A DNA stretch of 64,000 nucleotides from Acidobacteria bacterium RIFCSPLOWO2_02_FULL_65_29 (GCA_001767435.1 MEKT01000101.1:13054-77053); one strand, 5' to 3'; positions 34,493-47,578 are shown, numbered from the stretch's first letter. Translations and numbers: made by a program. The notes: generated by a model from the letters alone, not told the origin.

Positions 34493-34529
34493 ATTTTTCT
34501 CGTCCTGGCGTTCAGATCGGCCGATAATC

Positions 34530-35090: not shown

Positions 35091-35096
35091 TTTCGG

Positions 35097-37361
35097 TTGC
35101 GGCTGATGAGCGAGTCGTCACCCGCCCACCCGACGCCTGCGAGCGCACCGACCTCTTCGGGAGCGCCCCGAGCGCCCCAGCCGCTCACCTACGCCGTCGA
35201 CAAGGACGTGCACATCCTCGATCGGCTGGCGGTGGTCTACCGCTACAAGCGGATCGCGCTGTCGGTCTTCCTCCTCACCGCGCTCGCCCTGATGATTCAG
35301 GGGTACTCGGGAGAGCAGGTGTTCCAGGCCAAGGCGCAGGTGCTCATCGAAGACGAGCGCTCGACCGCCATGCCCGGGATCGCGGCGGCCGACTACTACC
35401 AGGATCCGATTCCCTACTACAACACGCAGTACCGGATTCTCCGCGGCCGCGATCTCGCGCGGCGCGTGGTCAAGCGGATCGACTTGCAGAACGTGGCCGA
35501 GTTCAACGGCACGGCCAAGCCGGCCGAGACGCCGGTCACGAAGGCGCGAGACGCCGGCGACCGGCTGCTCCGGTTCCTCGCGCGCACGCCAACGCCGATC
35601 GCGGAAGTGCCGAAACCCGACGAAACCGCCGACGAATCGGCGCTCGTGAGCAGGTTCCTCGGCCGCGTCCAGGTCGTGCCGGTCGCGGAGAGCAAGCTGG
35701 TCGACGTCTACTTCACCTCGGCCGACCCCCAGTTCGCGGCGACGGCGGCCAACGCGCTCGCCGACGAGTACGTCGCGTCCAATCTCGAAGTGAAGATGCA
35801 GGGCACGCAGAGCATGCTCGACTGGCTCGAGAAGGAAGTGGCGACCCAGCAATCGAAAGTCGAGCAGAGCGAACGCGATTTGGCCGAATATCGCGACCGC
35901 GAGAACGCGATGTCGCTCGACGAGAAGAACAACATCGTCTTGTCGCGGTTGAACGCGCTGAACGATGCGGTGCTGCGGGCCCGCACGACGCGGATAGAAA
36001 AGGAATCGGTCAACAATCAGATCAAGTCGCTGGGCACAACGCCGGTCGATTCGATTCCGGCCATCGCGCAGAACGCCCAGGTGCAGCTGCACAAAGCACA
36101 GCTCTCCGAGCTGCAGCGGCAGAAGGCGCAGCTGTCGGAGCGGTACGGCGAGAAACATCCGGACATCATCAACGTCAACGCGCGGCTGGGCGACGAACAG
36201 CGCCAGCTCGACCTGGAAACCGCCAAGGCGCTGCAGACGGTCAGGAACGAGTACGAGCGCGCGGTGCTCGAGGAGCGCACGTTCGCCGCGAACCTCGAGG
36301 AAGCGAAGAAGGACGTCCAGGATCTGGGCCGCAAGAGCGTCAGCTACAACGTCCTCGAACGCGAGGCCCGAAGCAACCGGACGGTCTACGAGTCCCTGCT
36401 CCAGCGCGAAAACGAGCTTCGGGTATCGAGCAACAGCCGCGCCAACAACGTCCGCGTCGTCGAGCGCGCCGAAGTGCCGGCGGGCCCGCTGACGCCGACC
36501 GGGCGCCGCACGTGGCTGCTGTCGTTTGCCGTCGGGCTCGTGGCGGCCATCTCGGTGGCCTACGGTCTCGACTACATGAACGACACGATCAAGACACCGG
36601 AAGACGTCACGCGAATGCTGAAAATGACGTTCCTCGGCCTGATCCCGTCGGTTCGAGGGGACAAGCACCCGGTGCTCGCCTCGTCGCACGCGCCGCACGA
36701 TTTCAGCGAGGCATTCCGCAGCTTGCGGACCTCGATTGCCTCCCGTTATCCGGGCGAAGGCGCCAAGACGATGATCGTCACGAGCGCGCAGCCGCTCGAG
36801 GGCAAGACCACGACGGCGGCCAACATCGCGATGGCCCTCGCGTACGGCGGCGCTCGCGTGCTGCTGATCGACGCCGACATGCGCCGGCCGGGCCTCCACC
36901 GGTCGCTGCGTCTGACGAACGACCGCGGGTTGTCGCAGATTCTGACCGGTCAGGCCCGCGTGCGCGACGTCATCCAGCGGACCGTCGACCCGAATCTGCT
37001 GGCCATCACAGCCGGACGAACGCCGGCCAACCCCTCGGAGCTCTTGTCGTCGGAGCGCATGAAGACGCTCATCACGAACCTGCGGCACGGGCCGTTCGAC
37101 TGGATCGTGATCGACACGCCGCCGGTACTGGCCGTGACCGACGCCGTGATCCTCGCGCCGATGGTGGCCGGCGTGACCTTCGTGATCGGCGCCGAAATGA
37201 CGAGACGGCGGCTGGCCGAGCGCGCGCTCGAAACGATCCTGGCCAGCCATCCGAAGATGGTCGGTGTCGTCCTCAACAAGGTCGACTTCGCGCGGAACAA
37301 GTACTACTATTCGCGCTACTACGGACACCAGTACAAGAGCTACTACGCGCGGGTCGGCTAG
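35097..37361 (+). CDS. polysaccharide co-polymerase / tyrosine autokinase (Wzc-type)
   Basis: A Wzz-like N-terminal region with long coiled coils, the P-loop VTSAQPLEGKTTTAANIA, VLLIDADMRRP, and a C-terminal Tyr cluster NKYYYSRYYGHQYKSYYARVG. Confidence 0.9.
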   Translation: MRLMSESSPAHPTPASAPTSSGAPRAPQPLTYAVDKDVHILDRLAVVYRYKRIALSVFLLTALALMIQGYSGEQVFQAKAQVLIEDERSTAMPGIAAADYYQDPIPYYNTQYRILRGRDLARRVVKRIDLQNVAEFNGTAKPAETPVTKARDAGDRLLRFLARTPTPIAEVPKPDETADESALVSRFLGRVQVVPVAESKLVDVYFTSADPQFAATAANALADEYVASNLEVKMQGTQSMLDWLEKEVATQQSKVEQSERDLAEYRDRENAMSLDEKNNIVLSRLNALNDAVLRARTTRIEKESVNNQIKSLGTTPVDSIPAIAQNAQVQLHKAQLSELQRQKAQLSERYGEKHPDIINVNARLGDEQRQLDLETAKALQTVRNEYERAVLEERTFAANLEEAKKDVQDLGRKSVSYNVLEREARSNRTVYESLLQRENELRVSSNSRANNVRVVERAEVPAGPLTPTGRRTWLLSFAVGLVAAISVAYGLDYMNDTIKTPEDVTRMLKMTFLGLIPSVRGDKHPVLASSHAPHDFSEAFRSLRTSIASRYPGEGAKTMIVTSAQPLEGKTTTAANIAMALAYGGARVLLIDADMRRPGLHRSLRLTNDRGLSQILTGQARVRDVIQRTVDPNLLAITAGRTPANPSELLSSERMKTLITNLRHGPFDWIVIDTPPVLAVTDAVILAPMVAGVTFVIGAEMTRRRLAERALETILASHPKMVGVVLNKVDFARNKYYYSRYYGHQYKSYYARVG

Positions 37362-38709
37362 TGGCCGCTCCGGCCACGCGGTTGCGCTGGTCGCCCTGGC
37401 CGGCTGGGCGCTCTTTGCCTTTGCCGGCGCCTATCGCTGGACCGTTGTCCCCCTCATGGCCGGCGCCGCGATTCTGGCCGCCTTCGTTCGTCCGTCACTC
37501 TTTCGCCCGCCACATCGCCTGGTCGACGCGTCGATCGTGGCGTGCCTGCTGGTCACGGGTGCGCAGCTGATTCCGCTGCCGCTCGCCGTGCGCGCAGCCA
37601 TCTCCCCCGCCGCGGCGGAGGTCGAACGCCAGCTCCTCTTCGATGCCGGCGCATCCACCCGTCCGCTGTCGCTCGACGCGGCGTCGACGCTCTGGGCGCT
37701 GGCGAGTGGGACGGCCATGGCATTGATCTTCTGGAGCGCGCGCTCTGTGTTTGCGCGCGGCGCGGGACTCCGCGTGGTGGCGCGGTGGACGGCCTGGTTC
37801 GGGCTCGCCTTGGCCGCCGTCATGTTCGTCCAGCGGGCGGCGACGCCCGGGCTGATCTACGGCTTCTGGACGCCGATGACCAGGGCATCCCATCCGACTC
37901 CGCTCGGCCCGTTCGTCAACCGAAACGACATCGCCACGTGGCTGATGCTCGCGTGTCCGCTCGTCGTTGGGTACCTCATGGCACGGTGGTCGTCTCGGGT
38001 GGCGCGGCCGGGCGGTCGCCGCAACATCGAGACGTTCGTCGATTCGCGGGCGCTCTGGCTCGGCATGTCGGCCTGTCTGATGATTGCCGCGCTTCTGGCG
38101 TCGCTGTCGCGGTCGGGCCTGTTCGGCGCCGCCGTGGCCGTCTGCGTGTTCGCCCTTCTGGCGCGCCGGCGCGTGTCGGGCCGTCGCCTCGGCTGGAGCC
38201 TGGCCGCCGTCGGCCTCGCCGTGGCGGTCGCCACGATGTACGTGAATCTCGACGCGCTCGCGCAGCGGATCAGCGACACCCTGCCGTCAAATCTCGGGGG
38301 GCGCCTCGCCGTGTGGCGCGAGACGTGGCCGATGGCGCGCGACTTCCCGCTCACGGGCATCGGTGTCGGGGCGTTCGAGCGCGGCATGCTGGTCTACCAG
38401 CAGAGTACACGGCTGATCTTCTTCAATCACGCGCACAATGAGTACCTGCAGGTGCTGGTCGAAGGCGGGTGGCTGCTCGCGGCGCCGGCCGCGATTGCGA
38501 TCGTTGTGGGCTGGTGGGGTGTGCGAGCGCGGCTTGGATCGGATCGCACGCCGATGTTCTGGGTACGGGTCGGAGCGGCGAGCGGGTTGGCGGCCGTCGC
38601 GGCGCAAAGCCTCTGGGACACGGGCCTCCGGATGCCGGCCAGCGCGGTACTGTTCGCGATCGTCGCGGCGGCCGCGCTCCACGACGATCCAGCACCAGAC
38701 ATCTTCTAA
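37264..38709 (+). CDS. O-antigen ligase / polymerase (Wzy/WaaL) family membrane protein
   Basis: Multiple TM helices, and NHAHNEYLQVLVEGG, which is typical of the Wzy_C family. The start is uncertain: GTG at 37264 overlaps Wzc by 98 nt, and the next in-frame ATG is at 37456. Confidence 0.75.
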   Translation: MSSSTRSTSRGTSTTIRATTDTSTRATTRGSASGRSGHAVALVALAGWALFAFAGAYRWTVVPLMAGAAILAAFVRPSLFRPPHRLVDASIVACLLVTGAQLIPLPLAVRAAISPAAAEVERQLLFDAGASTRPLSLDAASTLWALASGTAMALIFWSARSVFARGAGLRVVARWTAWFGLALAAVMFVQRAATPGLIYGFWTPMTRASHPTPLGPFVNRNDIATWLMLACPLVVGYLMARWSSRVARPGGRRNIETFVDSRALWLGMSACLMIAALLASLSRSGLFGAAVAVCVFALLARRRVSGRRLGWSLAAVGLAVAVATMYVNLDALAQRISDTLPSNLGGRLAVWRETWPMARDFPLTGIGVGAFERGMLVYQQSTRLIFFNHAHNEYLQVLVEGGWLLAAPAAIAIVVGWWGVRARLGSDRTPMFWVRVGAASGLAAVAAQSLWDTGLRMPASAVLFAIVAAAALHDDPAPDIF

Positions 38710-38887: not shown

Positions 38888-39709
38888 GTGTCGTCGAGCG
38901 CGAAGCCGTTCTCGCCTGCTGGGTCGGCCCGAGCGCTTGGGTACGCTCTGCTCTGGCACAGCGCCGACGCGCTCGCGCGCGCCGCGAACGGCTGTCTGTA
39001 TCTCGCCGCGGGTTTTCTCCGTCAGAACGAGCTTCAGGCCGCCAGCGCCCTTCGGTGGGTGAACTTCGGCGTGTCGGCCGCCGGCGACGCCGAGATCGGC
39101 CTCACACCGTCCGAGCGGCGTCTCTACCTCGAGGTGCTTCATCCAGCCGATCGCGTGCTCCTGGTCGGATGCGGCACCGGACGCGATCTGATCGGTCTTT
39201 GCGAGTTGGGTTTCGAGGTCACGGGCATCGACCAGGCGGCAGAGCTGGTCGAGATTGCGCGCCAGAACCTCGCGCGTCGCGGACTCACGGCGAGCGTGGC
39301 TCTGGAGCGGGCCGAAGACATCGAGCTACACGACCAGTACGACGCGATCGTGTTCTCCAACGGCTGCTATTCGTTCCTGCGGCCGTCGGCCTCGCGCGTC
39401 GGCATGCTCGCTCGCATGAAATCCCGCCTGTCGAACGGCGGCCATGTCGTCATCGCGTACACCGCGTTCGCGAGGCCATCGGCGCTGTCCGTGCGGTTGA
39501 CGGACATCAGCGCGCGCCTGAGCGGTGCGGACTGGCGACCTGAACGCGGCGACTGCTTTTCGCGCGATCATCTCGGCCGTCGTGTCCTCCGGTACGAGCA
39601 CGCGTTCCGCCCCGACGAGGTGGCCGCGGAATGCGCGGCCGCTGGACTCAGGGGCATCCGCGACGATCCCGGCGATCCGCCGCTTCGCTTCCTAGTGGCC
39701 GTTCCCTGA
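38888..39709 (+). CDS. class I SAM-dependent methyltransferase
   Basis: RVLLVGCGTGRDLIGLCELGFEVTGID (motif I) and AIVFSNG. The start is uncertain. Confidence 0.75.
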   Translation: MSSSAKPFSPAGSARALGYALLWHSADALARAANGCLYLAAGFLRQNELQAASALRWVNFGVSAAGDAEIGLTPSERRLYLEVLHPADRVLLVGCGTGRDLIGLCELGFEVTGIDQAAELVEIARQNLARRGLTASVALERAEDIELHDQYDAIVFSNGCYSFLRPSASRVGMLARMKSRLSNGGHVVIAYTAFARPSALSVRLTDISARLSGADWRPERGDCFSRDHLGRRVLRYEHAFRPDEVAAECAAAGLRGIRDDPGDPPLRFLVAVP

Positions 39710-40730
39710 CTGGCAGGCTCGGACGCCCTTCGAAGTCCGCGAGCAGCGTATCGCACACGTCAGACAACGCCGAAAGCCTGCGAGGGTAGATCAAGCGACG
39801 AACGGCCACGTCGTTCACCAGACGCGCAGCAAGGGCGAACTGGTTCGCGGAGCGCTCCCGATCGAGCGCAATCAGATTGAAGAGCCCTCGGATCACGCCG
39901 AGAAACGCTTCCCGGCCGAGCAGAGGTTCGACACGCGCTCGACAAGAGCGAGCGTCTCCGACGGGCCTCGACAGCACATAGATCGCCCTGAGTGGAACGG
40001 GGCGACCCAGGGCCTGACCTGTGCCGAGCGGCAAGACGAGCTTCGGCGTCTGGTGATGCATCGGAACGCCTTCCGCGCGCGATCCCAGGAGCTTGGAGGC
40101 CACCGACGGAAACAACTTGATCCGGGGAACTCCGGGCTGCACGAGCCATCGCCCGAGCCGTCGTTTCAAGGCCACGACATCATCGGTGAGGACGGGGAAT
40201 CCTCGGGAGAGGAGCGCGGCGCCAAGCGTGGATTTCCCAGCGCCGCAGTCGCCCAGGAACACAACAGCCTCGCCGTCAATCACGCTGGCGGTGCCGTGCA
40301 GGGGCTCGACGCCCAGGGCGACGAGCGAGCAAGACAGGACCTGGCCGATCAGGTAGACGTCGAACGAGCCCGCGGTGGCGTGCTCCAGGCGGCGGTAGAG
40401 GATGCGACGGCCCTCAGGGGAAACCAGGAACTCGAACAGTCCGCGCCAACGCAGGTAGACGCCGCCGCCGGCCAGCCGGCGAGCGCAAAACCAGCCTGGC
40501 TGGCGCCGATCGGCGGCGGCCTCGCGGCGCGCGATCGCAAATCGATCCGCAGGCGCGTGCATGATCCGGACGTCGGGCCGGGTCGTCGGCCCGGCGCGCC
40601 GGCAGGAGAGCGAGAGGGTACTGGCCAGGGAGAGGCCGTACACGCGATAGCTGGTGGTGGAGGCCGCGATCCTTTTACGGCGCGGCCGTCGTCCTCGTCT
40701 TGGGACTGCCACCATCAGCCCTGTTGCCAC
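39648..40730 (-). CDS. HprK-related P-loop kinase (lasso-cluster kinase type)
   Basis: YRVYGLSLASTLSL N-terminal region and VVFLGDCGAGKSTLGAALLSRGFPVLTDDVV (HPr kinase-like P-loop). The start is uncertain (GTG 40730, ATG 40715 or a later GTG). Confidence 0.8.
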   Translation of the reverse strand: MATGLMVAVPRRGRRPRRKRIAASTTSYRVYGLSLASTLSLSCRRAGPTTRPDVRIMHAPADRFAIARREAAADRRQPGWFCARRLAGGGVYLRWRGLFEFLVSPEGRRILYRRLEHATAGSFDVYLIGQVLSCSLVALGVEPLHGTASVIDGEAVVFLGDCGAGKSTLGAALLSRGFPVLTDDVVALKRRLGRWLVQPGVPRIKLFPSVASKLLGSRAEGVPMHHQTPKLVLPLGTGQALGRPVPLRAIYVLSRPVGDARSCRARVEPLLGREAFLGVIRGLFNLIALDRERSANQFALAARLVNDVAVRRLIYPRRLSALSDVCDTLLADFEGRPSLPVRERPLGSEAADRRDRRGCP

Positions 40731-40833
40731 CCTTCGTCATCGTCAGCGTCTTGAGGTCCCCGTATCGCACGAGCTTGGGCTTTCGATAGGGACGCCTCGT
40801 ACCGGCCCGCTGCGCTGCTTTTTTCTGCGCCAC
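40675..40833 (-). CDS. candidate lasso-peptide precursor (52 aa), not listed as a separate ORF in the track
   Basis: GTG at 40833 with GGAGGAG 7 nt upstream, and TAA at 40675-40677. Product: VAQKKAAQRAGTRRPYRKPKLVRYGDLKTLTMTKGGNRADGGSPKTRTTAAP. The leader fits YxxPxLx3Gx5Tx. Sits between the cyclase and kinase genes. Confidence 0.6.
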   Translation of the reverse strand: MAQKKAAQRAGTRRPYRKPKLVRYGDLKTLTMTKGGNRADGGSPKTRTTAAP

Positions 40834-42785
40834 CAGTGTTCTCCTCCAGTCGGTCTCGTTGCCGCTTCCCTGGCCTCCCCACCGCTTGCGAACAGACGCA
40901 ACCACAGCTCGAGACCAAACGCGTCGGCAAGGTCCCACGCGCCCGTACAGTCGACCGGCGTCAGGTCGGCGGACAACTGCGCGACGGCCGGGCCGAGCCG
41001 CCCGGCGTCGAAGTACCCGAGCTTCACGCCAAGCGAGTCGGCGGTCAGCGCGCGCGCGATGCAGGCGGCATCCCGGCCAACGCCGAGGTTGATGAAATCG
41101 CTGAAATCCGCCTTTCCCTGCCGGGCGTACACCAGTTCGGGCAGCACACCCCGCATGGCCTCGCGCGCGAGCGCGCGCGGCGCGCCGCCCCACGCGTGCA
41201 TCTCCCCGGGAATCGCCATCAGGAAGGCCAGCAGCTCCCGATCCAGAAACGGAAAGGCCACATCCTGACCGAACAGCGCGGCGCTCTTATTGTGCCACTC
41301 AATGCAGTGCACATGGTACTTGGAGCGGGCCTCCAGGTACACGGCCCGGGCGTGCGCCGAATGGAACCCGTGACCGATCGTGGCGGGACGGCCGGCGAAC
41401 CGAAGCGCTCGCCGGAGAAAACGGTCCGAGAACCACGGCCTCGGGCGTTCGACGCCGAGTAGCCGGCGTCTGATCCATTTCAAGGGAGGCACGAGCGAGG
41501 CCGGCACGTGGTACCGGGCCAGGTCCACGAGCAGGCGGCGCAGGAGCACACCGGCTTCGACCTCGCCGAGCCACCGCGCGTGTTCGCGCGCATGCCGATA
41601 GACGGTGCGCCAGGCGCCCCGGTGAAACAGATCGACGAGGTACGCAGGTGAAAACAGTACCTGGTCGCCCCAGTGACCCGTCAGCAGCACCCGCGCGCCG
41701 CGGGACGCCGCGACGCGGTGCAGCTCCCGGCTGAGTCCCCACATGTAGTCGATGAACGGCGCTTCAGCGGCGCGGATCTGCTCCTCTGCGCCCTGCACGA
41801 GGCCGACGAACGGCTCCACAGCGATTCGCTCGATCGGCAGGCCGTACCTGGCCTCGATGGCGTCCACGTAGCGGCCTTCGTCGATTGGCGTGCCGGCGGG
41901 GCCGACCCATGAGATGCCGATGAGCGCGCCGCAGATCGCCGGCCGCGCGCGCCTGATGGCGTCGGCCTGACACGCAATCGAAGACGAATCGAGCCCGCCG
42001 CTCAACGAGACGGCCACCGGACCAGCCGCGCGAATGCGCCGCCGAACGGCGCGCGCAAACACTTCGCGAAACGCCTCCTGATAGTCGCCGAGGGTGCGAA
42101 GCGTGAGCGTGCGCCCGGTGTCGAAGTCCCAATAGCGTCTCGTCACGGTCCGCTCCCTCGTCGTCACACAGAGGTGGGCCGGGACGAGTGCGGCGACGTG
42201 TTCGAAGCAGGTGATCTCCTGCCGATCGATGGGCCGCGAGCTGACGAGCAGATAGTCGGCGATGCCCTCCAGGTCGGGACGCGCTGGCACCTGCGGATGG
42301 GCCAGGAGGGCCTTGATCTCGGACGCGAATACAAATACTCGATCGGTTCTGGAGTAGTACAGCGGCCGAAGGCCGATCGAGTCGCGGACCAGCAGCAGAT
42401 GCTGCCTCCGCTCGTCGAACAGGGCGATCGCGAAATCGCCGTTGAGATGCTCGGCAAATCCCTCACCCCACGTTTCGTAGGCCGCGAGCGCGAGGGCGGC
42501 GTCGCTCGTCCCGGGCGGCACCCCGATCGCCGGCATGAGCTCGTCGCGGTTGTCGAGCCGCCCATCCATCATCAGGTGGACGCCGCCGTTGCCCTGCAGG
42601 GGTTGAACTTCGCCGTCCTCCTCCGGTGTGACCCGGCAGCGCTGATGCGAGAATCCCAGCGAGCCATCGACGTATCGGCCTTCGCCGTCCGGGCCACGGT
42701 GACGGAGCGTGTCGCTCATGCCGATCAACACCGCTCGATCCAGCGGCCGGCCGTCCAGGTTCCAGACGCCGACGAGTCCGCTCAT
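40743..42785 (-). CDS. asparagine-synthetase-like lasso peptide cyclase (C protein)
   Basis: Starts MSGLVGVWNL, with Ser in place of the Cys2 nucleophile. Contains an AsnB-type synthetase core (VAVSLSGGLDSSSIA PP-loop) and a conserved-looking end, LELWLRLF, followed by a ~45-aa low-complexity tail. Confidence 0.85.
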   Translation of the reverse strand: MSGLVGVWNLDGRPLDRAVLIGMSDTLRHRGPDGEGRYVDGSLGFSHQRCRVTPEEDGEVQPLQGNGGVHLMMDGRLDNRDELMPAIGVPPGTSDAALALAAYETWGEGFAEHLNGDFAIALFDERRQHLLLVRDSIGLRPLYYSRTDRVFVFASEIKALLAHPQVPARPDLEGIADYLLVSSRPIDRQEITCFEHVAALVPAHLCVTTRERTVTRRYWDFDTGRTLTLRTLGDYQEAFREVFARAVRRRIRAAGPVAVSLSGGLDSSSIACQADAIRRARPAICGALIGISWVGPAGTPIDEGRYVDAIEARYGLPIERIAVEPFVGLVQGAEEQIRAAEAPFIDYMWGLSRELHRVAASRGARVLLTGHWGDQVLFSPAYLVDLFHRGAWRTVYRHAREHARWLGEVEAGVLLRRLLVDLARYHVPASLVPPLKWIRRRLLGVERPRPWFSDRFLRRALRFAGRPATIGHGFHSAHARAVYLEARSKYHVHCIEWHNKSAALFGQDVAFPFLDRELLAFLMAIPGEMHAWGGAPRALAREAMRGVLPELVYARQGKADFSDFINLGVGRDAACIARALTADSLGVKLGYFDAGRLGPAVAQLSADLTPVDCTGAWDLADAFGLELWLRLFASGGEAREAATRPTGGEHWWRRKKQRSGPVRGVPIESPSSCDTGTSRR

Positions 42786-42863
42786 GGGAGTGGGAGTATA
42801 CTTTCGAGGTCGCCAGCGGCAAAGCTGACAGGGCCGACAAGGCCGACTCCCCCGCTATAGGGC

Positions 42864-43160
42864 ATGACTCGACGCTCCATTCCCGACTCGGCGATGCTCG
42901 AAGCCGACGGTGAGGTCCTGGCCACGCACTTCGCCGAGGAAGTCGTGGTCCTCAACCTGCGAGACGGCGTCTACTACGGCCTCGAGGACGTTGGGGCCCG
43001 CATCTGGCATCTGCTCCAGCAACCCATCTCCATTGTCGGTCTTCGCGACGCGCTCGTCGCCGATTACGACGTCGAGCCGACCCGGTGCGAACGAGACGTT
43101 CGCGTGCTCGTCGGCGAGCTCGCCGCCAAAGGTCTGATCAAAGTGCGTGAGGACGCGTGA
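42864..43160 (+). CDS. PqqD-family RRE protein (lasso B1)
   Basis: VVVLNLRDGVYYGLEDVGARIWHLLQQPISIVGLRDALVADYDVEPTRCERDVRVLVGELAAKGLI. Confidence 0.85.
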   Translation: MTRRSIPDSAMLEADGEVLATHFAEEVVVLNLRDGVYYGLEDVGARIWHLLQQPISIVGLRDALVADYDVEPTRCERDVRVLVGELAAKGLIKVREDA

Positions 43161-43618
43161 TCGCGCGCACTGCCCGATTCCGAGCGCTCGGTCGAACGGA
43201 CAGGAAGCTGGTGCTGGAAGCCGCCGGCCTGCTGACGTGCGCGTGGCTTGGCGTACGGTGCCTCCGGTATCCGACACTGTGCGCGTCGTTGGAGCGGTGG
43301 GCAGCCTCGACCCGCACGCGTCACCATCGACGAGAACGAGCTACGCCCGATGCGATCGCTCGCGTTGTGTGGGCCATGAGTGCCGTCGCACGACAGTTCC
43401 CGGCATTCCGAACCTGTCTCGTCGAGGCGTTGGCCGTGCACGCCATGCTCAGGCGTCGGGGGCTTCCCTCCGAGATGCGGCTGGGCGTTCGCACCCCGGG
43501 TTCCCAGGCAGCCTCGCTTGTGGCCCACGCCTGGGTCGAGTGCGACGGTGTCGTCGTGGTGGGCAACGATCGGGATTTGCCGCAGTACGCAGTACTGTCG
43601 GCGATAGGGCGGTCGTGA
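43157..43618 (+). CDS. lasso peptide B2 leader peptidase (transglutaminase-like cysteine protease)
   Basis: FRTCLVEALAVHAMLRRRGLPSEMRLGVR and LVAHAWVECDGVVVVG (Cys/His/Asp). Its GTG start overlaps the B1 stop as GTGA. Confidence 0.85.
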   Translation: MIARTARFRALGRTDRKLVLEAAGLLTCAWLGVRCLRYPTLCASLERWAASTRTRHHRRERATPDAIARVVWAMSAVARQFPAFRTCLVEALAVHAMLRRRGLPSEMRLGVRTPGSQAASLVAHAWVECDGVVVVGNDRDLPQYAVLSAIGRS

Positions 43619-44757
43619 CGACGGCAGGGTCATCGGCGCGTCAGACTGGCGCGCTGGCGGCGCTCCTCCGGGGTGAGGAAGTCCCCTGGCGCAAGCTGGC
43701 GAACACTGCCGACGATCTGGTGCTGGCGTGCGAGCAGGAGGACCTCACGGCGCTCGTCTACCGGACGCTTGACTCCAGCCGGACGTGCCACGATTGGCCC
43801 TCGACGGCGCGGGACGCCATCGCCAGGACCGCTCGACACGACGCAGTGCGGGAGGAGCTGCGCCGCCGAGAAATCGCGACCGTCCTGGGAACCCTTGCGC
43901 GCGATCGCATCTACCCGATCCTGTTCAAAGGCGCGGCGCTCGCCTACAGCGTGTACGAGACGCCCTCCGCAAGGCCACGCAGCGACACCGACCTGCTGGT
44001 TCGCCGCGAGGATGTGGAGGCGGTCAGGCGCGTGATGAGGGGACTGGGGTACGCCGCCACTCCGTATTGCGACGGCGAGCTGCTCTTCTGCCAGTTCGAG
44101 ATGGCGAAGACCGACAACTTCGGGGTGGACCACGCCTTCGACATCCACTGGAAGATCAGCACGCAGGCTCTCTTCGCGGACATGCTCGACTACGAGACCG
44201 TGACGAGAGAGAGCGTCCATCTGCCGGCCGTGGCACCGGAGGCCAGGGCAGCGGGTCTCGTGCACGCTCTGCTCCTGGCATGCGTGCACCCCGCCATGCA
44301 CCACCGGAACGAGGAGCGCCTCATCTGGCTGTACGACGTCCACCTGCTCGCCTCGCAGCTCTCCTCCAGCGAGCTCGAACGCTTCACCGCCCTCGCGCTC
44401 GACAAACGCGTCGCCGCTGTCTGCCGTCATCAGCTCGACCTTGCACGGTGGCGGTTCCAGACGGTCATCCCCGAGCGCGTGCTCCACGCACTCTCGACGC
44501 CGCCCTGGCTCGAACGATCGGCCGAGTACCTGCCGCGCGATCGACGGTGGCACCACGAGCTTCTGAGCTCGATGCGCGCCTTGCCGCGCTGGCGCGATCG
44601 CGCCCAGCTTGCCCGCGAAGTGCTGCTCCCCAACTCCCGCTACATGCTTGCGGCCTACGGCGTCGGCGCCGGCAGACGAAGCGTCGCCCTCCTGCCGGCG
44701 CTCTACGTGCATCGCGCGCTGTACGGTACCTGGAAGATCTTGCGCGGCTGGAAGTAG
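43615..44757 (+). CDS. uncharacterised nucleotidyltransferase family protein (PF14907-like)
   Basis: The in-frame GTG at 43615 overlaps the B2 stop as GTGA. ILFKGAALAYSVYETPSARPRSDTDLLVRREDVEAV, FDIHWKIS. Confidence 0.75.
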   Translation: MTTAGSSARQTGALAALLRGEEVPWRKLANTADDLVLACEQEDLTALVYRTLDSSRTCHDWPSTARDAIARTARHDAVREELRRREIATVLGTLARDRIYPILFKGAALAYSVYETPSARPRSDTDLLVRREDVEAVRRVMRGLGYAATPYCDGELLFCQFEMAKTDNFGVDHAFDIHWKISTQALFADMLDYETVTRESVHLPAVAPEARAAGLVHALLLACVHPAMHHRNEERLIWLYDVHLLASQLSSSELERFTALALDKRVAAVCRHQLDLARWRFQTVIPERVLHALSTPPWLERSAEYLPRDRRWHHELLSSMRALPRWRDRAQLAREVLLPNSRYMLAAYGVGAGRRSVALLPALYVHRALYGTWKILRGWK

Positions 44758-44766
44758 CAGATGCTG

Positions 44767-45933
44767 CTAAGCCAGGGCGGCCCTGAACAGCACGCGGCGG
44801 GCGGGGGGATGCTTCAGCAGGGCGACGATGAACTCGCGGTGGCGATTGAAGGTGGCGGTCCGGCGTACGATTGGCATGATGCCGTCTGTCCGTGCCAGCT
44901 CGAACAGCCGATCGATGTCGCCGTCCGAGAGGCGGCGCGCGATTCTACGCAGAATCAGCTGCCAGCGTAGTTCCGACCCGAGCCGCCCGCGCCACGCGGT
45001 CTCATAGGCCGCGAGCGCATCTCGATGCACCTGGTCGGTGGCAAGCGCCTTCACGAGCGTTTCGGCGGCGAGCTCCCCGCTCAAGAGACTGTAGTAGATG
45101 CCGCCGCCGGTCGTCGGCTTCACGAGTCCGGCCGCGTCGCCAAGCACCAGGACGCGGTCGTCGTACGTCCGCTTGATCGGCGCGAGCGGCAGGATCTTCA
45201 GGCGGGGCGAGCAGCCTTCGCCGACGCGAACCCCCCAGCGCTTGGCAATCGACCCGAGCATCAAGCGATAGTGGCGGCTGGCGTCGCCCTCGCACATCAC
45301 GCCGACGCGCACACACGTGCGATCCGGCCGCTCGACCGGCACGGCCCAGGCGAAGCCTCCCGGCGCCACGTAGGCGCCGAAATGCACTTCAACGGGACCG
45401 ATCCGCCCGGCCGGCAGCTCGGCCTGCGCCGACTGCAGCATCATCCGCGGCAGCCCGAGGCCCAGCCGCTGCTGAAGCGCGTAGTTGGCGCCGCATGCGA
45501 GCACGACGACGCGGGCCCACGTGTGGCCGTCGCCCGCCGTCAGGCGCACGCCTTCGCGCTCGACATCGATCGAGGTCACGCGGGCGTGTCGTATGCACAC
45601 CCCGGCACGCTCGGCGTCATCGGCCAGCGCGCGATCGAACAGCGTCCGATCGATCACCACCGCCTCGACCTCCGGCGTGGAGTGCTCGATGGTGTCGCCC
45701 GACGGCGAATAAAAACGAACGGTGGTGAGCTCGTTCAAGACGGTGTGGGACGACAGCCCGAACGCGTCGAAGGCATCGCGCGCGAGGACCCCGGTGCAGT
45801 GGACGGGCTCGCCGATATCGGGATGCTCCTCGAAGAGCACGACGCGCCAGCCGGCCCGTGCGATCCTGAGACCTGCAGAGAGGCCTGCAGGACCGCCGCC
45901 GATGATTGCGACGTCGCTTTGATCGTGGTTCAC
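44767..45933 (-). CDS. geranylgeranyl-reductase-family FAD-dependent oxidoreductase
   Basis: DVAIIGGGPAGLSAGLRIARAGWRVVLFE, GDAAGLVKPTTGGGIYYSL. Confidence 0.85.
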   Translation of the reverse strand: MNHDQSDVAIIGGGPAGLSAGLRIARAGWRVVLFEEHPDIGEPVHCTGVLARDAFDAFGLSSHTVLNELTTVRFYSPSGDTIEHSTPEVEAVVIDRTLFDRALADDAERAGVCIRHARVTSIDVEREGVRLTAGDGHTWARVVVLACGANYALQQRLGLGLPRMMLQSAQAELPAGRIGPVEVHFGAYVAPGGFAWAVPVERPDRTCVRVGVMCEGDASRHYRLMLGSIAKRWGVRVGEGCSPRLKILPLAPIKRTYDDRVLVLGDAAGLVKPTTGGGIYYSLLSGELAAETLVKALATDQVHRDALAAYETAWRGRLGSELRWQLILRRIARRLSDGDIDRLFELARTDGIMPIVRRTATFNRHREFIVALLKHPPARRVLFRAALA

Positions 45934-46080
45934 GTGTGATAGGTCCAGACGGTCGCCGGGTCGGCCGATTATACGAGCATTCGCGCGCGGCAGCCTACTC
46001 GATGGTCCTCGCCAGGCCGGTTCGAAAATCGGTGCGCGCGCGAAAACCGCCGCCCCGGGTCACGTGAGGCGCTCCCGATT

Positions 46081-46905
46081 TCACGATGCCTCCGTCTGCC
46101 GGTTCTCGACGGGCTTCCGCAGGACGAACCAGACCTGCGTGGCCAGATGCGGGCCAAGCCACGGCAGCGGCGAGGCCACGGTCTTCTCGAGCACGAACCG
46201 TCCGCGAAGACGCGCCCGAAGCGACATCCAGTTGAAGCCCTTGTGATCGTGAAACGGCGAGGCGCCGGCGGCGCCAGACACAGGCCGAACCAGATGCTGC
46301 CGCTCGCCCGCCCACACGCTGCGCCAGTACTCGCCTAGCGTGTAGGGGCTCGTGCCCGGATAGTCGCCAATTCCGCGCCACCCGGCCAGTCGGCGCGCGG
46401 CCTGCTTGACGAGCAGCGGCAGGCCGGTTTCGACAGGAACGCTCACCAGCAGCGTGCCGCCTGGCGCCAGGACCCGCCATAACCGATCGATCACAGCGTC
46501 GAGGACGACGACGTGCTCGAGCACCTCCATACAGACGACGCCATCGTACCGCGCTCGGTGCTCGTCATCGTCGAGTGCCGGGACCAGCGCGAAGCGGAGC
46601 CCCCGGCGCTCGCCCAGCCGTGCCTGGCAGTCGCTGACCTGAAACTGGTCGATCTCGACACCGAGGGCCTCGACAGGCGGTGACGGTCCAGCCGAGAGCA
46701 GCGCGAGGAACGTTCCGTCGCCGCATCCGTAGTCGAGAACGCTCTGCCCGGCGAACCGCGCGGCCAGGCGAAGGCCGACCTCGAAGCGGCGCCGATGGCT
46801 CCACGCGATCAGAGGATCCCTGCAGAAGATCTGCTTGGTCGCGTAGTGCCCCTCGCGGAGCGCGGGATCGACGCCCTTCAGAACTTCCGCTCCCGAGCTT
46901 CCCAC
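46081..46905 (-). CDS. class I SAM-dependent methyltransferase
   Basis: SVLDYGCGDGTFLALL, VVCMEVLEHV, LAPGGTLLVSVP. Confidence 0.8.
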   Translation of the reverse strand: MGSSGAEVLKGVDPALREGHYATKQIFCRDPLIAWSHRRRFEVGLRLAARFAGQSVLDYGCGDGTFLALLSAGPSPPVEALGVEIDQFQVSDCQARLGERRGLRFALVPALDDDEHRARYDGVVCMEVLEHVVVLDAVIDRLWRVLAPGGTLLVSVPVETGLPLLVKQAARRLAGWRGIGDYPGTSPYTLGEYWRSVWAGERQHLVRPVSGAAGASPFHDHKGFNWMSLRARLRGRFVLEKTVASPLPWLGPHLATQVWFVLRKPVENRQTEAS

Positions 46906-47486
46906 GCGCCTCGGAGGGTGATCCAGAACGACACGAGAATGAGCCTGAGATCGAGGAGCAACGATCGCCGTCGGATGTAGAGCAGATCGAAACGGAACTT
47001 CTGGCGGCGCGAGACGTCGCGAGGCGCGTAGATCTGCGCGATGCCTGTGAGGCCCGGTGGCACGGAGGTCCGCTCGGGGAAGCCGGGAATGGCGTGAAGC
47101 GGCACACGCGCGCCGTTGGCGTCCACCTCGATTTCTTCTGGCCGGAGCGCTCGCGGGCCGACAACGCTCATATCGCCGCGAAAGATGTTCCAGAGCTGCG
47201 GCAGCTCGTCCAGGGCGGTGGCCCGGAGCAGCGTACCAACGCGCGTGACGCGGGGATCGCGCTCGACAGCCTGTACGGGGCCCACACCGCGCTCGGCGTC
47301 GGGAATCATGGAACGGAACTTCAGCGCGTCGAACGCACGCCCGCCCTCGCCGACGCGGCCTTGCGCATAGAACACGGGGCCGCCATCCTCGATCTTGATC
47401 GCCAGCGCGATCGCCACCGAGAGCGGTGCGGACAGGACCAGACCGAGGCCCGATAGCACAACGTCCAGCGCGCGCTTTGTGGTCAC
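46878..47486 (-). CDS. priming polyprenyl-phosphate sugar phosphotransferase (bacterial sugar transferase family)
   Basis: KRALDVVLSGLGLVLSAPL, GGPVFYAQGRVGEGGRAFDALKFRSM, DELPQLWNIFRGDMSVVGPRA. Confidence 0.9.
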   Translation of the reverse strand: MTTKRALDVVLSGLGLVLSAPLSVAIALAIKIEDGGPVFYAQGRVGEGGRAFDALKFRSMIPDAERGVGPVQAVERDPRVTRVGTLLRATALDELPQLWNIFRGDMSVVGPRALRPEEIEVDANGARVPLHAIPGFPERTSVPPGLTGIAQIYAPRDVSRRQKFRFDLLYIRRRSLLLDLRLILVSFWITLRGAWEARERKF

Positions 47487-47529
47487 GGTAGCGAAGCTTC
47501 GCCTACATCGCCGAGTAACGGGCCCGTGA

Positions 47530-47578
47530 GAACACTTGCCTCATTCGCTTGGACATCGGCGTTGCAAGATGTCTAGAC
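47530..47578 (-). repeat. ~50-nt junction motif, copy iii
   Basis: The minus strand reads GTCTAGACATCTTGCAACGCCGATGTCCAAGCGAATGAGGCAAGTGTTC. Its TAG is the stop of the upstream glycosyltransferase, and it lies 40-90 nt upstream of the sugar-transferase start. Confidence 0.6.

What the first reader, a model, noticed from the sequence alone, without database searches (positions are those of the whole stretch)
39648..44757. Lasso-peptide island (split B1/B2, HprK-like kinase, PF14907-type nucleotidyltransferase) splitting an EPS locus
The island is two divergent blocks.
- Minus strand: Asn-synthetase-like cyclase (40743-42785), then a 52-codon precursor candidate (40675-40833), then a P-loop HprK-like kinase (39648-40730, GDCGAGKSTLGAALL).
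- Plus strand: PqqD-like RRE/B1 (42864-43160), a transglutaminase-like protease B2 (43157-43618; Cys in FRTCLVEAL, His/Asp in AHAWVECDG) and a PF14907-like nucleotidyltransferase (43615-44757, RPRSDTDLLV). These three are chained by GTGA start/stop overlaps.

The cyclase begins Met-Ser-Gly. It therefore lacks the Cys2 glutaminase nucleophile of genuine AsnB, as expected for lasso cyclases.

Kinase-linked lasso clusters are known (paeninodin type), where the kinase phosphorylates the C-terminal Ser of the precursor. Here the precursor ends ...TTAAP, so the targets of the kinase and the nucleotidyltransferase are unexplained. No ABC exporter or isopeptidase is adjacent.

The island sits between the Wzc/ligase half and the ~18-kb glycosyltransferase operon of one EPS locus, with no integrase or transposase nearby. 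That argues for functional coupling rather than recent insertion. From memory, HprK-related-kinase/PqqD pairs have been noted bioinformatically next to EPS loci but remain uncharacterised. The flanking geranylgeranyl-reductase-like flavoprotein (44767-45933) could be a tailoring enzyme, which is pure speculation.
Basis: partly seen in the sequence, partly recalled or inferred. Interest (0 to 1): 0.85.

Follow-up and report, generated by a model that had tools for sequence, protein, structure and literature searches.

The report
Kinase-tailored lasso peptide cluster in EPS locus
An uncultured soil Acidobacterium carries an intact gene set for a knotted "lasso" peptide of the known kinase- and nucleotidyltransferase-decorated type, sitting inside a slime-polysaccharide locus; that neighbourhood recurs across several phyla, which hints that these peptides of unknown role act in polysaccharide biology.

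Summary
All the ORFs exist at the stated coordinates, and HMMs identify a lasso cyclase-like Asn synthetase homologue, a PqqD RRE (B1), a lasso B2 protease, a PF14907 nucleotidyltransferase (N) and an HprK-like kinase (K).

The 52-codon precursor has a GGAGGAG Shine-Dalgarno site and a perfect YxxPxLx3Gx5Tx leader. Its core is TKGGNRADGGSPKTRTTAAP, with the ring acceptor at D8.

This is a known kind. Kinase- and NTase-tailored lasso clusters have been characterised (paeninodin, pseudomycoidin, Bradymonas bsf). The window belongs to an uncharacterised subfamily from Acidobacteriota and Gemmatimonadota. It has YxxP leaders, no C-terminal Ser and no Ser3. Instead there is a conserved [ST]-[RK] about 6-7 residues after the ring acceptor, which I predict is the phosphorylation site.

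A SAM methyltransferase (38888-39709) probably belongs to the cluster. The flanking geranylgeranyl-reductase homologue does not; it travels with the sugar-transferase operon.

The most interesting result concerns the neighbourhood. Of 39 related loci, 17 have a Wzc or Wzy_C gene nearby. These show at least eight different gene orders and fall in at least nine kinase lineages. The literature notes this link only for Bacilli.

Verdict: a new member of a known kind. Interest is moderate.

The parts
38888..39709 (+). MT1: class I SAM-dependent methyltransferase (273 aa). Probably an accessory tailoring gene of the lasso cluster.
   Evidence: It matches Methyltransf_25, _31, _12 and _11. The weak best NCBIfam hits include the daptide RiPP methyltransferase. 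Homologues sit next to or inside lasso clusters in L001, L005-L007, L017 (between C and A), L018, L027, L036 and L037. It is 38% identical over residues 8-264 to the methyltransferase in the B1-B2 operon of L080, which supports the start at 38888. Its 3' end overlaps the kinase 3' end tail-to-tail by 62 nt.
39648..40715 (-). K: HprK-like peptide kinase (355 aa from ATG 40715).
   Evidence: The Hpr_kinase_C match is weak (26 bits), and PDB HprK chains match only around the P-loop. In 26 homologues, H, G, G, G, K, S, D and D are invariant or nearly invariant (H124, G139, G142, G144, K145, S146, D162, D163). Their spacing is identical to the catalytic motif of BsfK (PMC10368454). The conserved N-terminal YRxYGL forces a start upstream of 40650. 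Metagenome gene callers use 40715.
40675..40833 (-). A: lasso precursor, 52 aa. The leader is MAQKKAAQRAGTRRPYRKPKLVRYGDLKTLTM (40738-40833). The core is TKGGNRADGGSPKTRTTAAP (40678-40737).
   Evidence: It has a GTG start and passes NF033521 lasso_leader_L3 (20.5 bits, above the cut-off of 19). The leader matches YxxPxLx3Gx5Tx exactly and the acceptor Asp is at core position 8. It is the only such motif in the window. Two 75-77% identical peptides exist in metagenomes.
40841..40847 (-). Shine-Dalgarno GGAGGAG, 7 nt upstream of the precursor GTG and inside the 3' end of the cyclase ORF.
   Evidence: Read directly from the sequence.
40743..42785 (-). C: Asn-synthetase-like lasso macrolactam cyclase (680 aa).
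   Evidence: The best NCBIfam hit is NF033535, lasso cyclase (363 bits). This compares with 222 bits for AsnB TIGR01536 and 165 bits for the XrtA amidotransferase. It begins M-S-G with no Cys2, as do 43 homologues. It has a C-terminal extension of about 30 aa relative to homologues.
42795..42822 (-). Sigma-70-like promoter candidate (TTGCCG-16-TATACT) in the 78-bp divergent intergenic region upstream of C.
   Evidence: It is the only hit in 7.6 kb, where shuffles give a mean of 0.6, so the evidence is weak.
42864..43160 (+). B1: PqqD-family RiPP recognition element (98 aa).
   Evidence: PF05402 scores 62 bits. NF033536, lasso_PqqD_Bac, scores 63.5 bits, below its cut-off of 80.
43157..43618 (+). 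B2: transglutaminase-like leader peptidase (153 aa).
   Evidence: NF033537 scores 91 bits (cut-off 33) and PF13471 scores 78 bits. Cys87 and His124 are conserved in 97-98% of 58 homologues. The GTGA overlap with B1 is confirmed.
43615..44757 (+). N: PF14907 nucleotidyltransferase-fold tailoring enzyme (380 aa).
   Evidence: PF14907 scores 106 bits. D124-T125-D126 are invariant in 25 homologues. The AlphaFold model has pLDDT 88.6. Its best PDB fold matches are MenT1, JHP933, ANT(2'')-Ia (5cfs, 4xje) and LnuA. Some homologues are B2-N fusions. The GTGA overlap with B2 is confirmed.
34482..38709 (+). Context, EPS module 1: a CarboxypepD_reg-like small protein (34482-35090), a Wzc-type co-polymerase/tyrosine autokinase (35097-37361) and a Wzy_C polymerase/ligase-family membrane protein (37264-38709).
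   Evidence: This trio, or parts of it, lies next to related lasso clusters in many taxa.
44767..58256 (-). Context, EPS module 2: a GGR-family flavoprotein (44767-45933), a methyltransferase (46081-46905), the Bac_transf initiating transferase (46878-47486), then GT4, GT2 and FkbM-type methyltransferase genes.
   Evidence: GGR stays beside Bac_transf in relatives whose lasso genes lie elsewhere.

Best explanation
This is an intact biosynthetic gene cluster for a class II, split-B lasso peptide of the kinase- and nucleotidyltransferase-tailored type.

Predicted pathway:
1. The 52-aa precursor is translated from GTG 40833.
2. B1 binds the YxxP leader.
3. The kinase, helped by B1, phosphorylates a hydroxyl residue of the still-linear core. 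I predict Thr14, in the conserved P-K-T-R segment. It cannot be a C-terminal Ser or Ser3, because both are absent.
4. N, which has a pol-beta nucleotidyltransferase fold and a DxD motif, further decorates the phosphate with a sugar or a nucleotide. This is by analogy with PsmN.
5. MT1 may add a methyl group.
6. B2 cuts after Thr(-2)-Met(-1).
7. The cyclase joins the alpha-amine of Thr1 to the side chain of Asp8. The product has an 8-residue ring and a 12-residue cationic tail.

The cluster has no exporter of its own. It is co-inherited with a Wzc/Wzy_C EPS module, so the peptide most likely acts in or with the polysaccharide and cell-surface pathway. It is probably not an accidental insertion.

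Status of the steps: gene identities, motifs and synteny are shown here. The order of steps follows characterised homologues. The Thr14 site, the chemistry of N and MT1, and the EPS-related role are inferences.
For: Gene identities rest on HMMs.

Precursor: the start codon, Shine-Dalgarno site, leader motif and D8 are read from the sequence.

Catalytic residues are intact:
- Kinase H-G-G-G-K-S-D-D, with the same spacing as BsfK (PMC10368454).
- B2 Cys87 and His124.
- N D124-x-D126, matching the essential D134/D136 of PsmN (PMC6993621).
- N has a nucleotidyltransferase fold, and its matches include the same PDB entries used to model PsmN.
- B2-N fusion proteins exist.

The C-A-K and B1-B2-N gene set recurs in dozens of loci from several phyla.

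Predicted phosphorylation site, from 44 predicted cores:
- D or E is at position 8 or 9 in all of them.
- Only 3 end in Ser, and only 3 have Ser at position 3.
- 35 carry [ST][RK] after the acceptor. In 25 of these it lies at +6 or +7. Shuffled tails give means of 16.5 and 3.3.
- The closest precursors keep S or T at position 14 followed by R15.
- Some cores have no Ser at all beyond position 1.
- As a positive control, the Bacillota loci in the same data set all show WxxP leaders and a C-terminal Ser.

EPS link:
- Wzc or Wzy_C lies within the fetched flanks in 17 of 39 close-clade loci, and in 13 of the 23 that have at least 12 kb of flank.
- At least eight gene orders occur. They include Wzy_C-to-N and B2/Wzy_C gene junctions in L024 and L028.
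- The link is scattered over the kinase tree.
- There is no compositional or mobile-element signature.
Against: No product has been observed; everything is sequence inference from a MAG.

The cyclase and B1 score below the curated NCBIfam cut-offs (363 against 525; 63.5 against 80). The kinase matches Hpr_kinase_C only weakly.

Gene overlaps are unusual. The cyclase 3' end overlaps the precursor start, the kinase start overlaps the precursor end, and MT1 and K overlap tail-to-tail.

The core is Gly-rich with no aromatic plug residues, so a stable threaded topology is not assured.

The [ST][RK] conservation comes from related sequences. It shows constraint, not phosphorylation. Nine of 44 cores lack the motif.

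The EPS association has no genome-wide background control. Many of the loci scored as lacking it are short contigs. Several full-length loci (L011, L012, L013, L015, L022) show no Wzc or Wzy_C within 10 kb.
Confidence: 0.7

Rival explanations
1. This is a genuine kinase/NTase-tailored lasso cluster, but the EPS neighbourhood has no mechanistic meaning. The peptide would be an ordinary secreted antimicrobial or signalling lasso peptide. It would merely share a variable cell-surface and secondary-metabolism region, or a regulon, with polysaccharide genes.
For: Many related clusters carry their own ABC exporter (L003, L008, L009, L011, L014, L016, L021, L023, L024 and the Bacillota loci). Several full-length loci have no Wzc or Wzy_C within 10 kb (L011, L012, L013, L015, L022). 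Acidobacteria carry many EPS loci, so the background adjacency is not negligible, and I could not compute it. The published view is that the roles of paeninodin-like peptides are unknown (PMC13381572).
Against: The adjacency recurs in at least eight different gene orders and at least nine kinase lineages. These span Vicinamibacterales, other Acidobacteriota, Terriglobia, Bryobacteraceae, Gemmatimonadales and Cohnella. In some loci Wzy_C and lasso genes abut or overlap on the same strand (L024, L028). The window and its seven closest EPS-embedded relatives lack any exporter. Within the fetched flanks there is one Wzc per about 31 kb. By general knowledge that is far denser than a few copies per multi-megabase genome.
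Confidence: 0.22
2. The cluster is decaying or silent in this organism. Overlapping reading frames, a read-through cyclase 3' end and a missing exporter would mean no mature peptide is made.
For: The cyclase ORF extends about 30 codons beyond its homologues and overlaps the precursor start. The kinase start overlaps the precursor end. MT1 and K overlap by 62 nt. No exporter is present. Related clusters such as bsf and pba were silent or unproductive in the laboratory (PMC10368454, PMC13381572).
Against: All seven ORFs are full length with intact catalytic residues. The precursor keeps a strong Shine-Dalgarno site, a perfect leader motif and the acceptor Asp. In two independent metagenome contigs the kinase product is identical and the called genes around it match in position and length. 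Long read-through ORFs are common in these 67% GC loci.
Confidence: 0.05
3. The genes serve the polysaccharide pathway and not a peptide. The Asn-synthetase homologue would be an EPS-associated amidotransferase, as in XrtA/PEP-CTERM systems. K and N would be a sugar kinase and a sugar nucleotidyltransferase, and the small ORF would be spurious.
For: The Asn-synthetase homologue has a sub-threshold hit to the XrtA/PEP-CTERM amidotransferase TIGR03108 (165 bits). A GHMP sugar-kinase-like gene sits in the B1-B2-MT1 operon of Vicinamibacterales relatives.
Against: The lasso cyclase model scores far higher (363 bits) and TIGR03108 needs 817 bits. The glutaminase Cys is absent in all 43 homologues. 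A dedicated lasso B2 protease passes its curated cut-off. The small ORF is conserved with a leader/core architecture in more than 40 loci, always next to C and K.
Confidence: 0.03

Closest known systems
Pseudomycoidin (psm) cluster of Bacillus pseudomycoides: psmC-A-K-B1-B2-N-D (PMC6993621)
   Same: Both have the same gene set: cyclase, precursor, HprK-like kinase, split B1/B2 and an uncharacterised PF14907-type NTP transferase with an essential DxD. The local order C-A-K is the same, and N follows B2. The N model here matches the same ANT(2'') structures (5cfs, 4xje) used to model PsmN.
   Different: PsmK targets an invariant C-terminal Ser, whereas the window precursor ends in Pro. The Bacillota leaders are WxxP and the window leader is YxxP. 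The window has no ABC exporter D. K is only about 27-32% identical to the Bacillota kinases, and N matches the Paenibacillus N proteins only weakly (25-31 bits). The window cluster is split into two divergent operons.
Paeninodin (pade) and paeninodin-like clusters, and their co-localisation with capsular polysaccharide loci in Bacilli (PMC9266682, PMC13381572)
   Same: Both are kinase-tailored lasso clusters. In the published cases phosphorylation occurs on the linear precursor before cleavage and cyclisation. Both are embedded in or next to polysaccharide loci that include a tyrosine autokinase. The biological role is unknown in both.
   Different: The phyla differ (Acidobacteriota and Gemmatimonadota against Bacillota). 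The window has no C-terminal Ser and no WxxP leader, and no SipW-type LPP companion cluster was seen. Here the linked partners are specifically a Gram-negative-type Wzc and a Wzy_C protein.
bsf cluster of Bradymonas sediminis: A, B1, B2, C, D, K, N (PMC10368454)
   Same: Both are Gram-negative kinase-plus-NTase lasso clusters with a YxxPxL leader, a Gly/Asp8-type 8-residue ring, a precursor lacking a C-terminal Ser, and a kinase motif H-G-G-G-K-S-D-D with identical spacing.
   Different: BsfK phosphorylates core Ser3. Position 3 is Gly in the window and Ser in only 3 of 44 family members. Bsf has Ile(-2) where the window has Thr(-2). Bsf has an exporter and no reported EPS context.
   Same: Both pair an HprK-like P-loop kinase with a PqqD-family protein.
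   Different: The window kinase scores 28 bits against a cut-off of 200, and B1 does not hit the HPr-rel-A PqqD model. It is not a member.

Membership tests
Lasso peptide biosynthetic gene cluster (class II, split B1/B2) | Precursor with a leader carrying YxxPxLx3Gx5Tx and Thr at -2 | tested here: met
   YRKPKLVRYGDLKTLTM matches exactly. NF033521 scores 20.5 bits, above its cut-off of 19.
Lasso peptide biosynthetic gene cluster (class II, split B1/B2) | Core with Asp or Glu at position 7-9 to accept the N-terminal amine | tested here: met
   Asp8 in the window. D or E is at position 8 or 9 in all 44 predicted cores of the family.
Lasso peptide biosynthetic gene cluster (class II, split B1/B2) | Asn-synthetase-like cyclase that lacks the glutaminase Cys and passes the lasso cyclase model | tested here: inconclusive
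   The best hit is NF033535, but 363 bits is below its curated cut-off of 525. Residue 2 is Ser here and never Cys in 43 homologues. The context supports a cyclase role.
Lasso peptide biosynthetic gene cluster (class II, split B1/B2) | PqqD-family RRE (B1) | tested here: met
   PF05402 scores 62 bits against a cut-off of 23.4. The lasso-specific NF033536 scores 63.5 bits, below its cut-off of 80.
Lasso peptide biosynthetic gene cluster (class II, split B1/B2) | Transglutaminase-like Cys protease (B2) | tested here: met
   NF033537 scores 91 bits against a cut-off of 33. Cys87 and His124 are conserved in 58 homologues.
Lasso peptide biosynthetic gene cluster (class II, split B1/B2) | Threaded lariat product | not testable with these tools
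   This needs expression, MS/MS and NMR, or carboxypeptidase and heat stability assays.
Kinase/NTase-tailored (paeninodin/pseudomycoidin-type) lasso clusters | HprK-like kinase with the catalytic His, P-loop Lys-Ser and Asp-Asp | tested here: met
   H124, G139, G142, G144, K145, S146, D162 and D163 are invariant or nearly invariant. Their spacing equals that of the BsfK motif (PMC10368454).
Kinase/NTase-tailored (paeninodin/pseudomycoidin-type) lasso clusters | PF14907 NTP-transferase gene following B2 | tested here: met
   PF14907 scores 106 bits. A GTGA overlap links it to B2. The DxD motif is invariant and the fold is a nucleotidyltransferase fold.
Kinase/NTase-tailored (paeninodin/pseudomycoidin-type) lasso clusters | Invariant C-terminal Ser of the precursor as phosphorylation site | tested here: not met
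   The precursor ends ...TTAAP. Only 3 of 44 family cores end in Ser, whereas every precursor I could identify in the Bacillota loci does.
Kinase/NTase-tailored (paeninodin/pseudomycoidin-type) lasso clusters | WxxP leader motif (paeninodin-like, per PMC13381572) | tested here: not met
   The leader is YxxP in the window and in 41 of 42 relatives.
Kinase/NTase-tailored (paeninodin/pseudomycoidin-type) lasso clusters | Dedicated ABC exporter (D) | tested here: not met
   No homologue of the L083 cluster exporter occurs in the 64-kb window. There is no ABC Pfam hit among the called genes within 10 kb.
Bsf-type Ser3-phosphorylated lasso peptides | Ser or Thr at core position 3, and Ile at -2 | tested here: not met
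   Core position 3 is Gly, and it is Ser in only 3 of 44 relatives. Position -2 is Thr.
HprK-related kinase A / HPr-rel-A system (TIGR04352) | Score at or above the curated cut-off of the equivalog model | tested here: not met
   28.2 bits against a cut-off of 200.
Genuine asparagine synthetase B, or the XrtA/PEP-CTERM EPS amidotransferase | N-terminal Cys nucleophile and a score above the TIGR01536 or TIGR03108 cut-off | tested here: not met
   The protein begins M-S-G. TIGR01536 scores 221.6 bits (cut-off 267.1) and TIGR03108 scores 164.5 bits (cut-off 816.9).

The most novel reading that the evidence does not exclude
The kinase/NTase-tailored lasso peptide is a dedicated component of the Wzx/Wzy-Wzc polysaccharide pathway and not a free secreted metabolite.

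One version: K phosphorylates the conserved tail Thr, and N activates or extends that phosphate. The peptide is then joined through a phosphodiester to a sugar of the lipid-linked repeat unit or of the polymer. The result would be a lasso-peptide-capped or lasso-peptide-decorated EPS that leaves the cell with the polysaccharide.

Alternatively, the modified peptide is a ligand that sets Wzc or Wzy activity and chain length.

Either version would explain three things. The linkage to Wzc/Wzy_C is conserved from Bacillota to Acidobacteriota. The clusters embedded in full EPS loci have lost their own ABC exporter. PsmN-dependent products carry one or two hexoses on the phosphate.
Probability: 0.15. 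Interest if true: 0.85.

Novelty: new member of a known kind. Interest (0 to 1): 0.5.

Why it matters
Kinase- and NTase-tailored lasso peptides have been produced and chemically characterised, but their biological role is still unknown (PMC13381572).

This window and its relatives show that the gene set is widespread in uncultured soil Acidobacteriota and Gemmatimonadota. They also show that the subfamily must use a different modification site from the two known ones.

The physical link to a Wzc/Wzy_C polysaccharide module survives extensive gene-order shuffling across phyla. That turns a loose remark about Bacilli into a testable hypothesis: these peptides act in capsule or EPS assembly, or in biofilm formation.

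The work also yields a concrete peptide for testing (core TKGGNRADGGSPKTRTTAAP), a predicted site (Thr14) and expected masses.

Tried and rejected
- **Window annotation look-up.** The NCBI version of the kinase (P0002) is not on record in the look-up of encoding contigs. The JGI/ENA version (P0001) worked.
- **Paeninodin paper.** The original JBC paper (PMC4919450) is not held. I used reviews and later papers instead.
- **Bacillota precursors.** My leader regex, which needs Gly at +10, finds no Bacillota precursors. Reading the small ORFs between C and K directly worked.
- **PDB sequence searches.** N has no relative. K matches HprK only around the P-loop. C matches Asn synthetases and a hydroxyamidotransferase only.
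- **PF27840.** It is precomputed on many kinase homologues but is not in the local Pfam copy, so I could not learn its name.
- **Precursor homologues.** The search found only two peptides, because small ORFs are rarely called.
- **Mobile-element and RNA signatures.** There were no Rfam families, no tRNA genes and only chance-level repeats flanking the island. No signature of mobile-element insertion was found.
- **Promoter scan.** It gave a single weak hit.
- **Rejected: GGR as a lasso tailoring enzyme.** It stays with Bac_transf and the GT genes when the lasso genes lie elsewhere.
- **Rejected: HPr-rel-A membership**.
- **Rejected: an AsnB or EPS amidotransferase reading of the cyclase**.
- **Not possible.** I could not compute a genome-wide background rate of Wzc/Wzy_C, because only about 20 kb per locus is available. 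I also could not model a kinase-peptide complex.

Full report

Yes.

HMM scans identify them as follows:
- 40743-42785(-): an Asn-synthetase homologue. Its best NCBIfam match is the lasso isopeptide cyclase NF033535 (363 bits). That is below the curated cut-off of 525, but well above AsnB TIGR01536 (222 bits) and the XrtA/PEP-CTERM amidotransferase TIGR03108 (165 bits).
- 42864-43160(+): PqqD, PF05402, 62 bits.
- 43157-43618(+): lasso B2, NF033537, 91 bits against a cut-off of 33.
- 43615-44757(+): PF14907 NTP_transf_5, 106 bits.
- 39648-40730(-): only a weak HPr-kinase match around the P-loop (26 bits).

Both GTGA start/stop overlaps are in the DNA.

The 52-codon ORF at 40675-40833(-) starts with GTG, 7 nt after GGAGGAG. 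It passes the curated cut-off of the lasso leader model NF033521 (20.5 bits against 19).

Its leader, YRKPKLVRYGDLKTLTM, fits YxxPxLx3Gx5Tx exactly. That places the cleavage site before TKGGNRADGGSPKTRTTAAP, with the acceptor Asp at core position 8. It is the only such motif in the 64-kb window.

GC content is flat across the island. There are no tRNA genes, no flanking repeats and no Rfam hits. None of the Pfam-annotated genes within 10 kb is an integrase or transposase.

The window matches a MAG named Acidobacteria bacterium RIFCSPLOWO2_02_FULL_65_29, with 100% identity for the kinase. The closest relatives are Vicinamibacterales MAGs.

**2. Details and corrections**

*Kinase.* Twenty-six homologues share invariant or near-invariant H124, G139, G142, G144, K145, S146, D162 and D163. 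These have exactly the spacing of the mutationally validated BsfK motif H148-G163-G166-G168-K169-S170-D186-D187 (PMC10368454).

The conserved N-terminal YRxYGL means the gene must start at ATG 40715 or GTG 40712. It therefore overlaps the last 13 or so precursor codons. Metagenome gene callers chose 40715.

*Cyclase.* It begins M-S-G. In 43 homologues residue 2 is Ser (38), Asn, Gly or Ala, and never Cys. Its ORF runs about 30 codons beyond where homologues end, so it overlaps the precursor start in another frame.

*B2.* Cys87 and His124 are conserved in 97-98% of 58 homologues.

*N.* D124-T125-D126 are invariant. This parallels the essential D134/D136 of PsmN (PMC6993621).

An AlphaFold model built from 25 homologues has pLDDT 88.6. 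Its best PDB fold matches are pol-beta-type nucleotidyltransferases: MenT1, JHP933, ANT(2'')-Ia and LnuA. They include 5cfs and 4xje, the very entries used to model PsmN (PMC6993621).

Some N homologues are natural B2-N fusions, as noted for Firmicutes (PMC8498205).

*Methyltransferase.* MT1 (38888-39709, +) is 38% identical to a methyltransferase that sits in the B1-B2 operon of a Vicinamibacterales relative. Homologues are adjacent to or inside lasso clusters in about ten loci, and in L017 one lies between C and A. It should be counted as a probable cluster member.

**3. Precursor family**

Using an alignment of kinase homologues I fetched 79 loci from GTDB species-representative genomes. 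I then annotated them with the window proteins.

In the clade with roughly 35-55% kinase identity, C-A-K plus B1-B2-(N) recurs. The taxa are Vicinamibacterales, other Acidobacteriota, Terriglobia, Bryobacteraceae, Gemmatimonadota, Nitrospirales, Rokubacteria/Methylomirabilota, Verrucomicrobiota, Desulfobacterales and Actinomycetota.

Forty-four predicted precursors have these features:
- A YxxP leader in 41 of the 42 taken from loci.
- Asp or Glu at core position 8 (most) or 9.
- A consensus core of x-K-G-G-x-x-x-D-G-x-G-K-P-x-T-[RK]-x5-6.

Only 3 of 44 end in Ser and only 3 of 44 have Ser at position 3. Thirteen of 42 have no Ser at all after position 1.

By contrast, 35 of 44 carry [ST][RK] after the acceptor, and in 25 it lies at +6 or +7. 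Shuffled tails give means of 16.5 and 3.3, with maxima of 27 and 9 in 2000 shuffles. Because the sequences are related, this shows conservation and not independent events.

The two closest peptides keep Ser or Thr at position 14 followed by Arg15.

As a positive control, the Paenibacillus, Cohnella and Bacillus loci in the same data set all have WxxP leaders and a C-terminal Ser. This is what the literature describes for paeninodin-like clusters (PMC9266682, PMC13381572).

**4. Neighbourhood**

In the window the order is:

CarboxypepD_reg-like, Wzc, Wzy_C, MT1 > < K, A, C | B1, B2, N > < GGR, MT, Bac_transf, many GT4/GT2/MT genes.

Beyond the CarboxypepD_reg gene the genes are housekeeping.

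Relatives keep the same partners in different orders:
- **L001 and L002:** < N | C-A-K > < B2-B1-MT1-GHMP kinase | CPDreg-Wzc-Wzy_C > < GGR-Bac_transf-GT.
- **L036 and L037:** B1-B2-C-C'-K-MT1-N-Wzc-Wzy_C > < MT-GGR-Bac_transf.
- **Gemmatimonadales L003 and L008:** Wzc > < N-B2-B1 | C-A-K-ABC-PRMT-like methyltransferase.
- **L024:** Wzc ... Wzy_C-N-K-C-A, with the Wzy_C stop abutting the N start.
- **L028:** B2 overlaps Wzy_C.
- **L041:** Wzc-B1-C-A-K.
- **L014, L016, L021, L031 and L035:** Wzy_C and/or Wzc nearby.
- **Cohnella:** a CpsD-like kinase and Bac_transf lie 4-6 kb away.

Overall, 17 of 39 close-clade loci have Wzc or Wzy_C in the fetched flanks. Among the 23 loci with at least 12 kb of flank, 13 do.

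On a neighbour-joining tree of the kinases, the EPS-adjacent loci are scattered over at least nine lineages. That tree has no support values, and many negative loci are short contigs.

I could not compute a genome-wide background. Within these flanks there is one Wzc per about 31 kb. By general knowledge that is far above a few copies per multi-megabase genome.

GGR always stays beside Bac_transf, 6-9 kb from the lasso genes in L001, L002, L005-L007, L036 and L037. It therefore belongs to the sugar operon and not to the lasso pathway.

The window and its seven relatives embedded in full EPS loci lack the ABC exporter that many other clusters carry. These eight are phylogenetically close, so this may reflect only one or two events.

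**5. How it most likely works**

Shown here: the gene identities, the intact catalytic motifs, the precursor architecture and the conserved synteny.

Inferred from characterised homologues (PMC9266682, PMC6993621, PMC10368454):
- B1 binds the leader.
- K, stimulated by B1, phosphorylates the linear precursor.
- B2 cleaves after Thr(-2)-Met(-1).
- C makes the Thr1-Asp8 isopeptide, giving an 8-residue ring and a 12-residue tail.
- N adds a further group to the phosphate. PsmN adds one or two hexoses.

My own inference is that the phosphorylation site is Thr14, in P-K-T-R. Both known sites (C-terminal Ser and Ser3) are absent, and this is the only conserved hydroxyl residue in the family.

The role of MT1 (methylation) is a guess.

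The conserved linkage argues that the product acts in or with the Wzc/Wzy polysaccharide pathway. How it does so is unknown.

**6. Comparison with what is known**

The cluster works like the psm, pade and bsf clusters and shares their gene set.

It fails two features that define the paeninodin type (C-terminal Ser and a WxxP leader). It also fails the site that defines the Bsf type (Ser3). It lacks an exporter.

It is not a member of the HPr-rel-A system: TIGR04352 scores 28 bits against a cut-off of 200. It is not a true AsnB or XrtA amidotransferase either.

Co-localisation of paeninodin-like clusters with capsular polysaccharide loci has been reported for Bacilli only, with the comment that the roles are unknown (PMC13381572). 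Searches of the held literature found no paper that links lasso peptides to Wzc or O-antigen-ligase genes. They also found none describing this Acidobacteriota/Gemmatimonadota subfamily.

**7. Verdict**

This is a real, intact lasso peptide cluster of a known, experimentally characterised kind. It is a new member, with subfamily-level differences in the predicted modification site, the leader motif and the lack of an exporter.

The part worth following up is the linkage to a Wzc/Wzy_C module. It holds across phyla and is independent of gene order, which gives a concrete handle on the unknown function of this whole class.

Interest is 0.5. The most novel reading still open is that the peptide is a covalent or regulatory component of EPS assembly. 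I put that at about 15% probability, with high interest if true.

Noticed in passing
window 44767-45933 (-), and L080 18608-19765: A geranylgeranyl-reductase-family flavoprotein is conserved immediately beside the Bac_transf initiating sugar transferase in this EPS operon and in seven relatives. It may saturate the polyprenyl lipid carrier of the EPS pathway. That is speculation.
   Followed up: partly
window 21475-28355 (+): There are three tandem paralogous PQQ-dependent dehydrogenases of about 733 aa (PF01011, 551-574 bits each). They are unrelated to the PqqD-like B1, but they could mislead annotation of B1 as a PQQ-biosynthesis gene.
   Followed up: partly
window 8689-13539 (-) and 15593-19180 (-): There are two very large outer-membrane proteins (1616 and 1195 aa) with a CarboxypepD_reg domain and an OMP_b-brl_4 barrel (about 530 bits each). 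A small CarboxypepD_reg-like protein (34482-35090) also precedes Wzc here and in relatives.
   Followed up: no
window 40675-40833 and neighbours: Three coding overlaps surround the precursor and kinase. The cyclase ORF reads about 90 nt into the precursor gene in another frame. The kinase start (40715) overlaps the precursor 3' end by about 40 nt. MT1 and the kinase overlap tail-to-tail by 62 nt (39648-39709).
   Followed up: partly
L080 12429-13364; L083 10837-13835: Accessory genes vary between relatives. A GHMP-family, sugar-kinase-like gene is translationally coupled to MT1-B1-B2 in Vicinamibacterales. An ABC exporter and a PRMT-like (PrmA/PRMT5_C) methyltransferase follow the kinase in Gemmatimonadales. 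PRMT-like homologues also occur in L022, L024, L031, L035 and L041. None of these is in the window.
   Followed up: partly
L009, L018, L027, L032, L036, L037, L051: Two tandem cyclase paralogues sit within one cluster, and several loci carry two precursor genes (L015, L016, L023, L028). This suggests two-product clusters.
   Followed up: no
L030, L058, L064, L065, L073, L076: These loci have K with B1 (plus B2 in all but L073, and N in some) but no cyclase within the fetched DNA. L030 still encodes a lasso-like precursor (SKGGTKSDGGLKPATRQTAKPA). They may be incomplete contigs, clusters with a remote cyclase, or linear phosphorylated peptide systems like the LPPs of PMC13381572.
   Followed up: no
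P0124-P0128, P0168, P0192 (homologues of window 43615-44757): These are natural fusion proteins that combine the B2 protease domain (PF13471) with the PF14907 nucleotidyltransferase. They are 55-62% identical to the window N.
   Followed up: no
window 59538-61373 (-), 54260-55147 (-), 63216-63998 (-): These ORFs in the glycosyltransferase operon have no Pfam match. The 611-aa one has about nine hydrophobic segments, and the ORF truncated by the end of the window has about six. They could be the unrecognised flippase or polymerase of the EPS pathway.
   Followed up: partly
kinase homologues P0008, P0024, P0065 and others: Many kinase homologues carry a precomputed Pfam family, PF27840. It is absent from the local Pfam copy, so its name and definition could not be checked. 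It may be a newly curated family for these kinases.
   Followed up: partly
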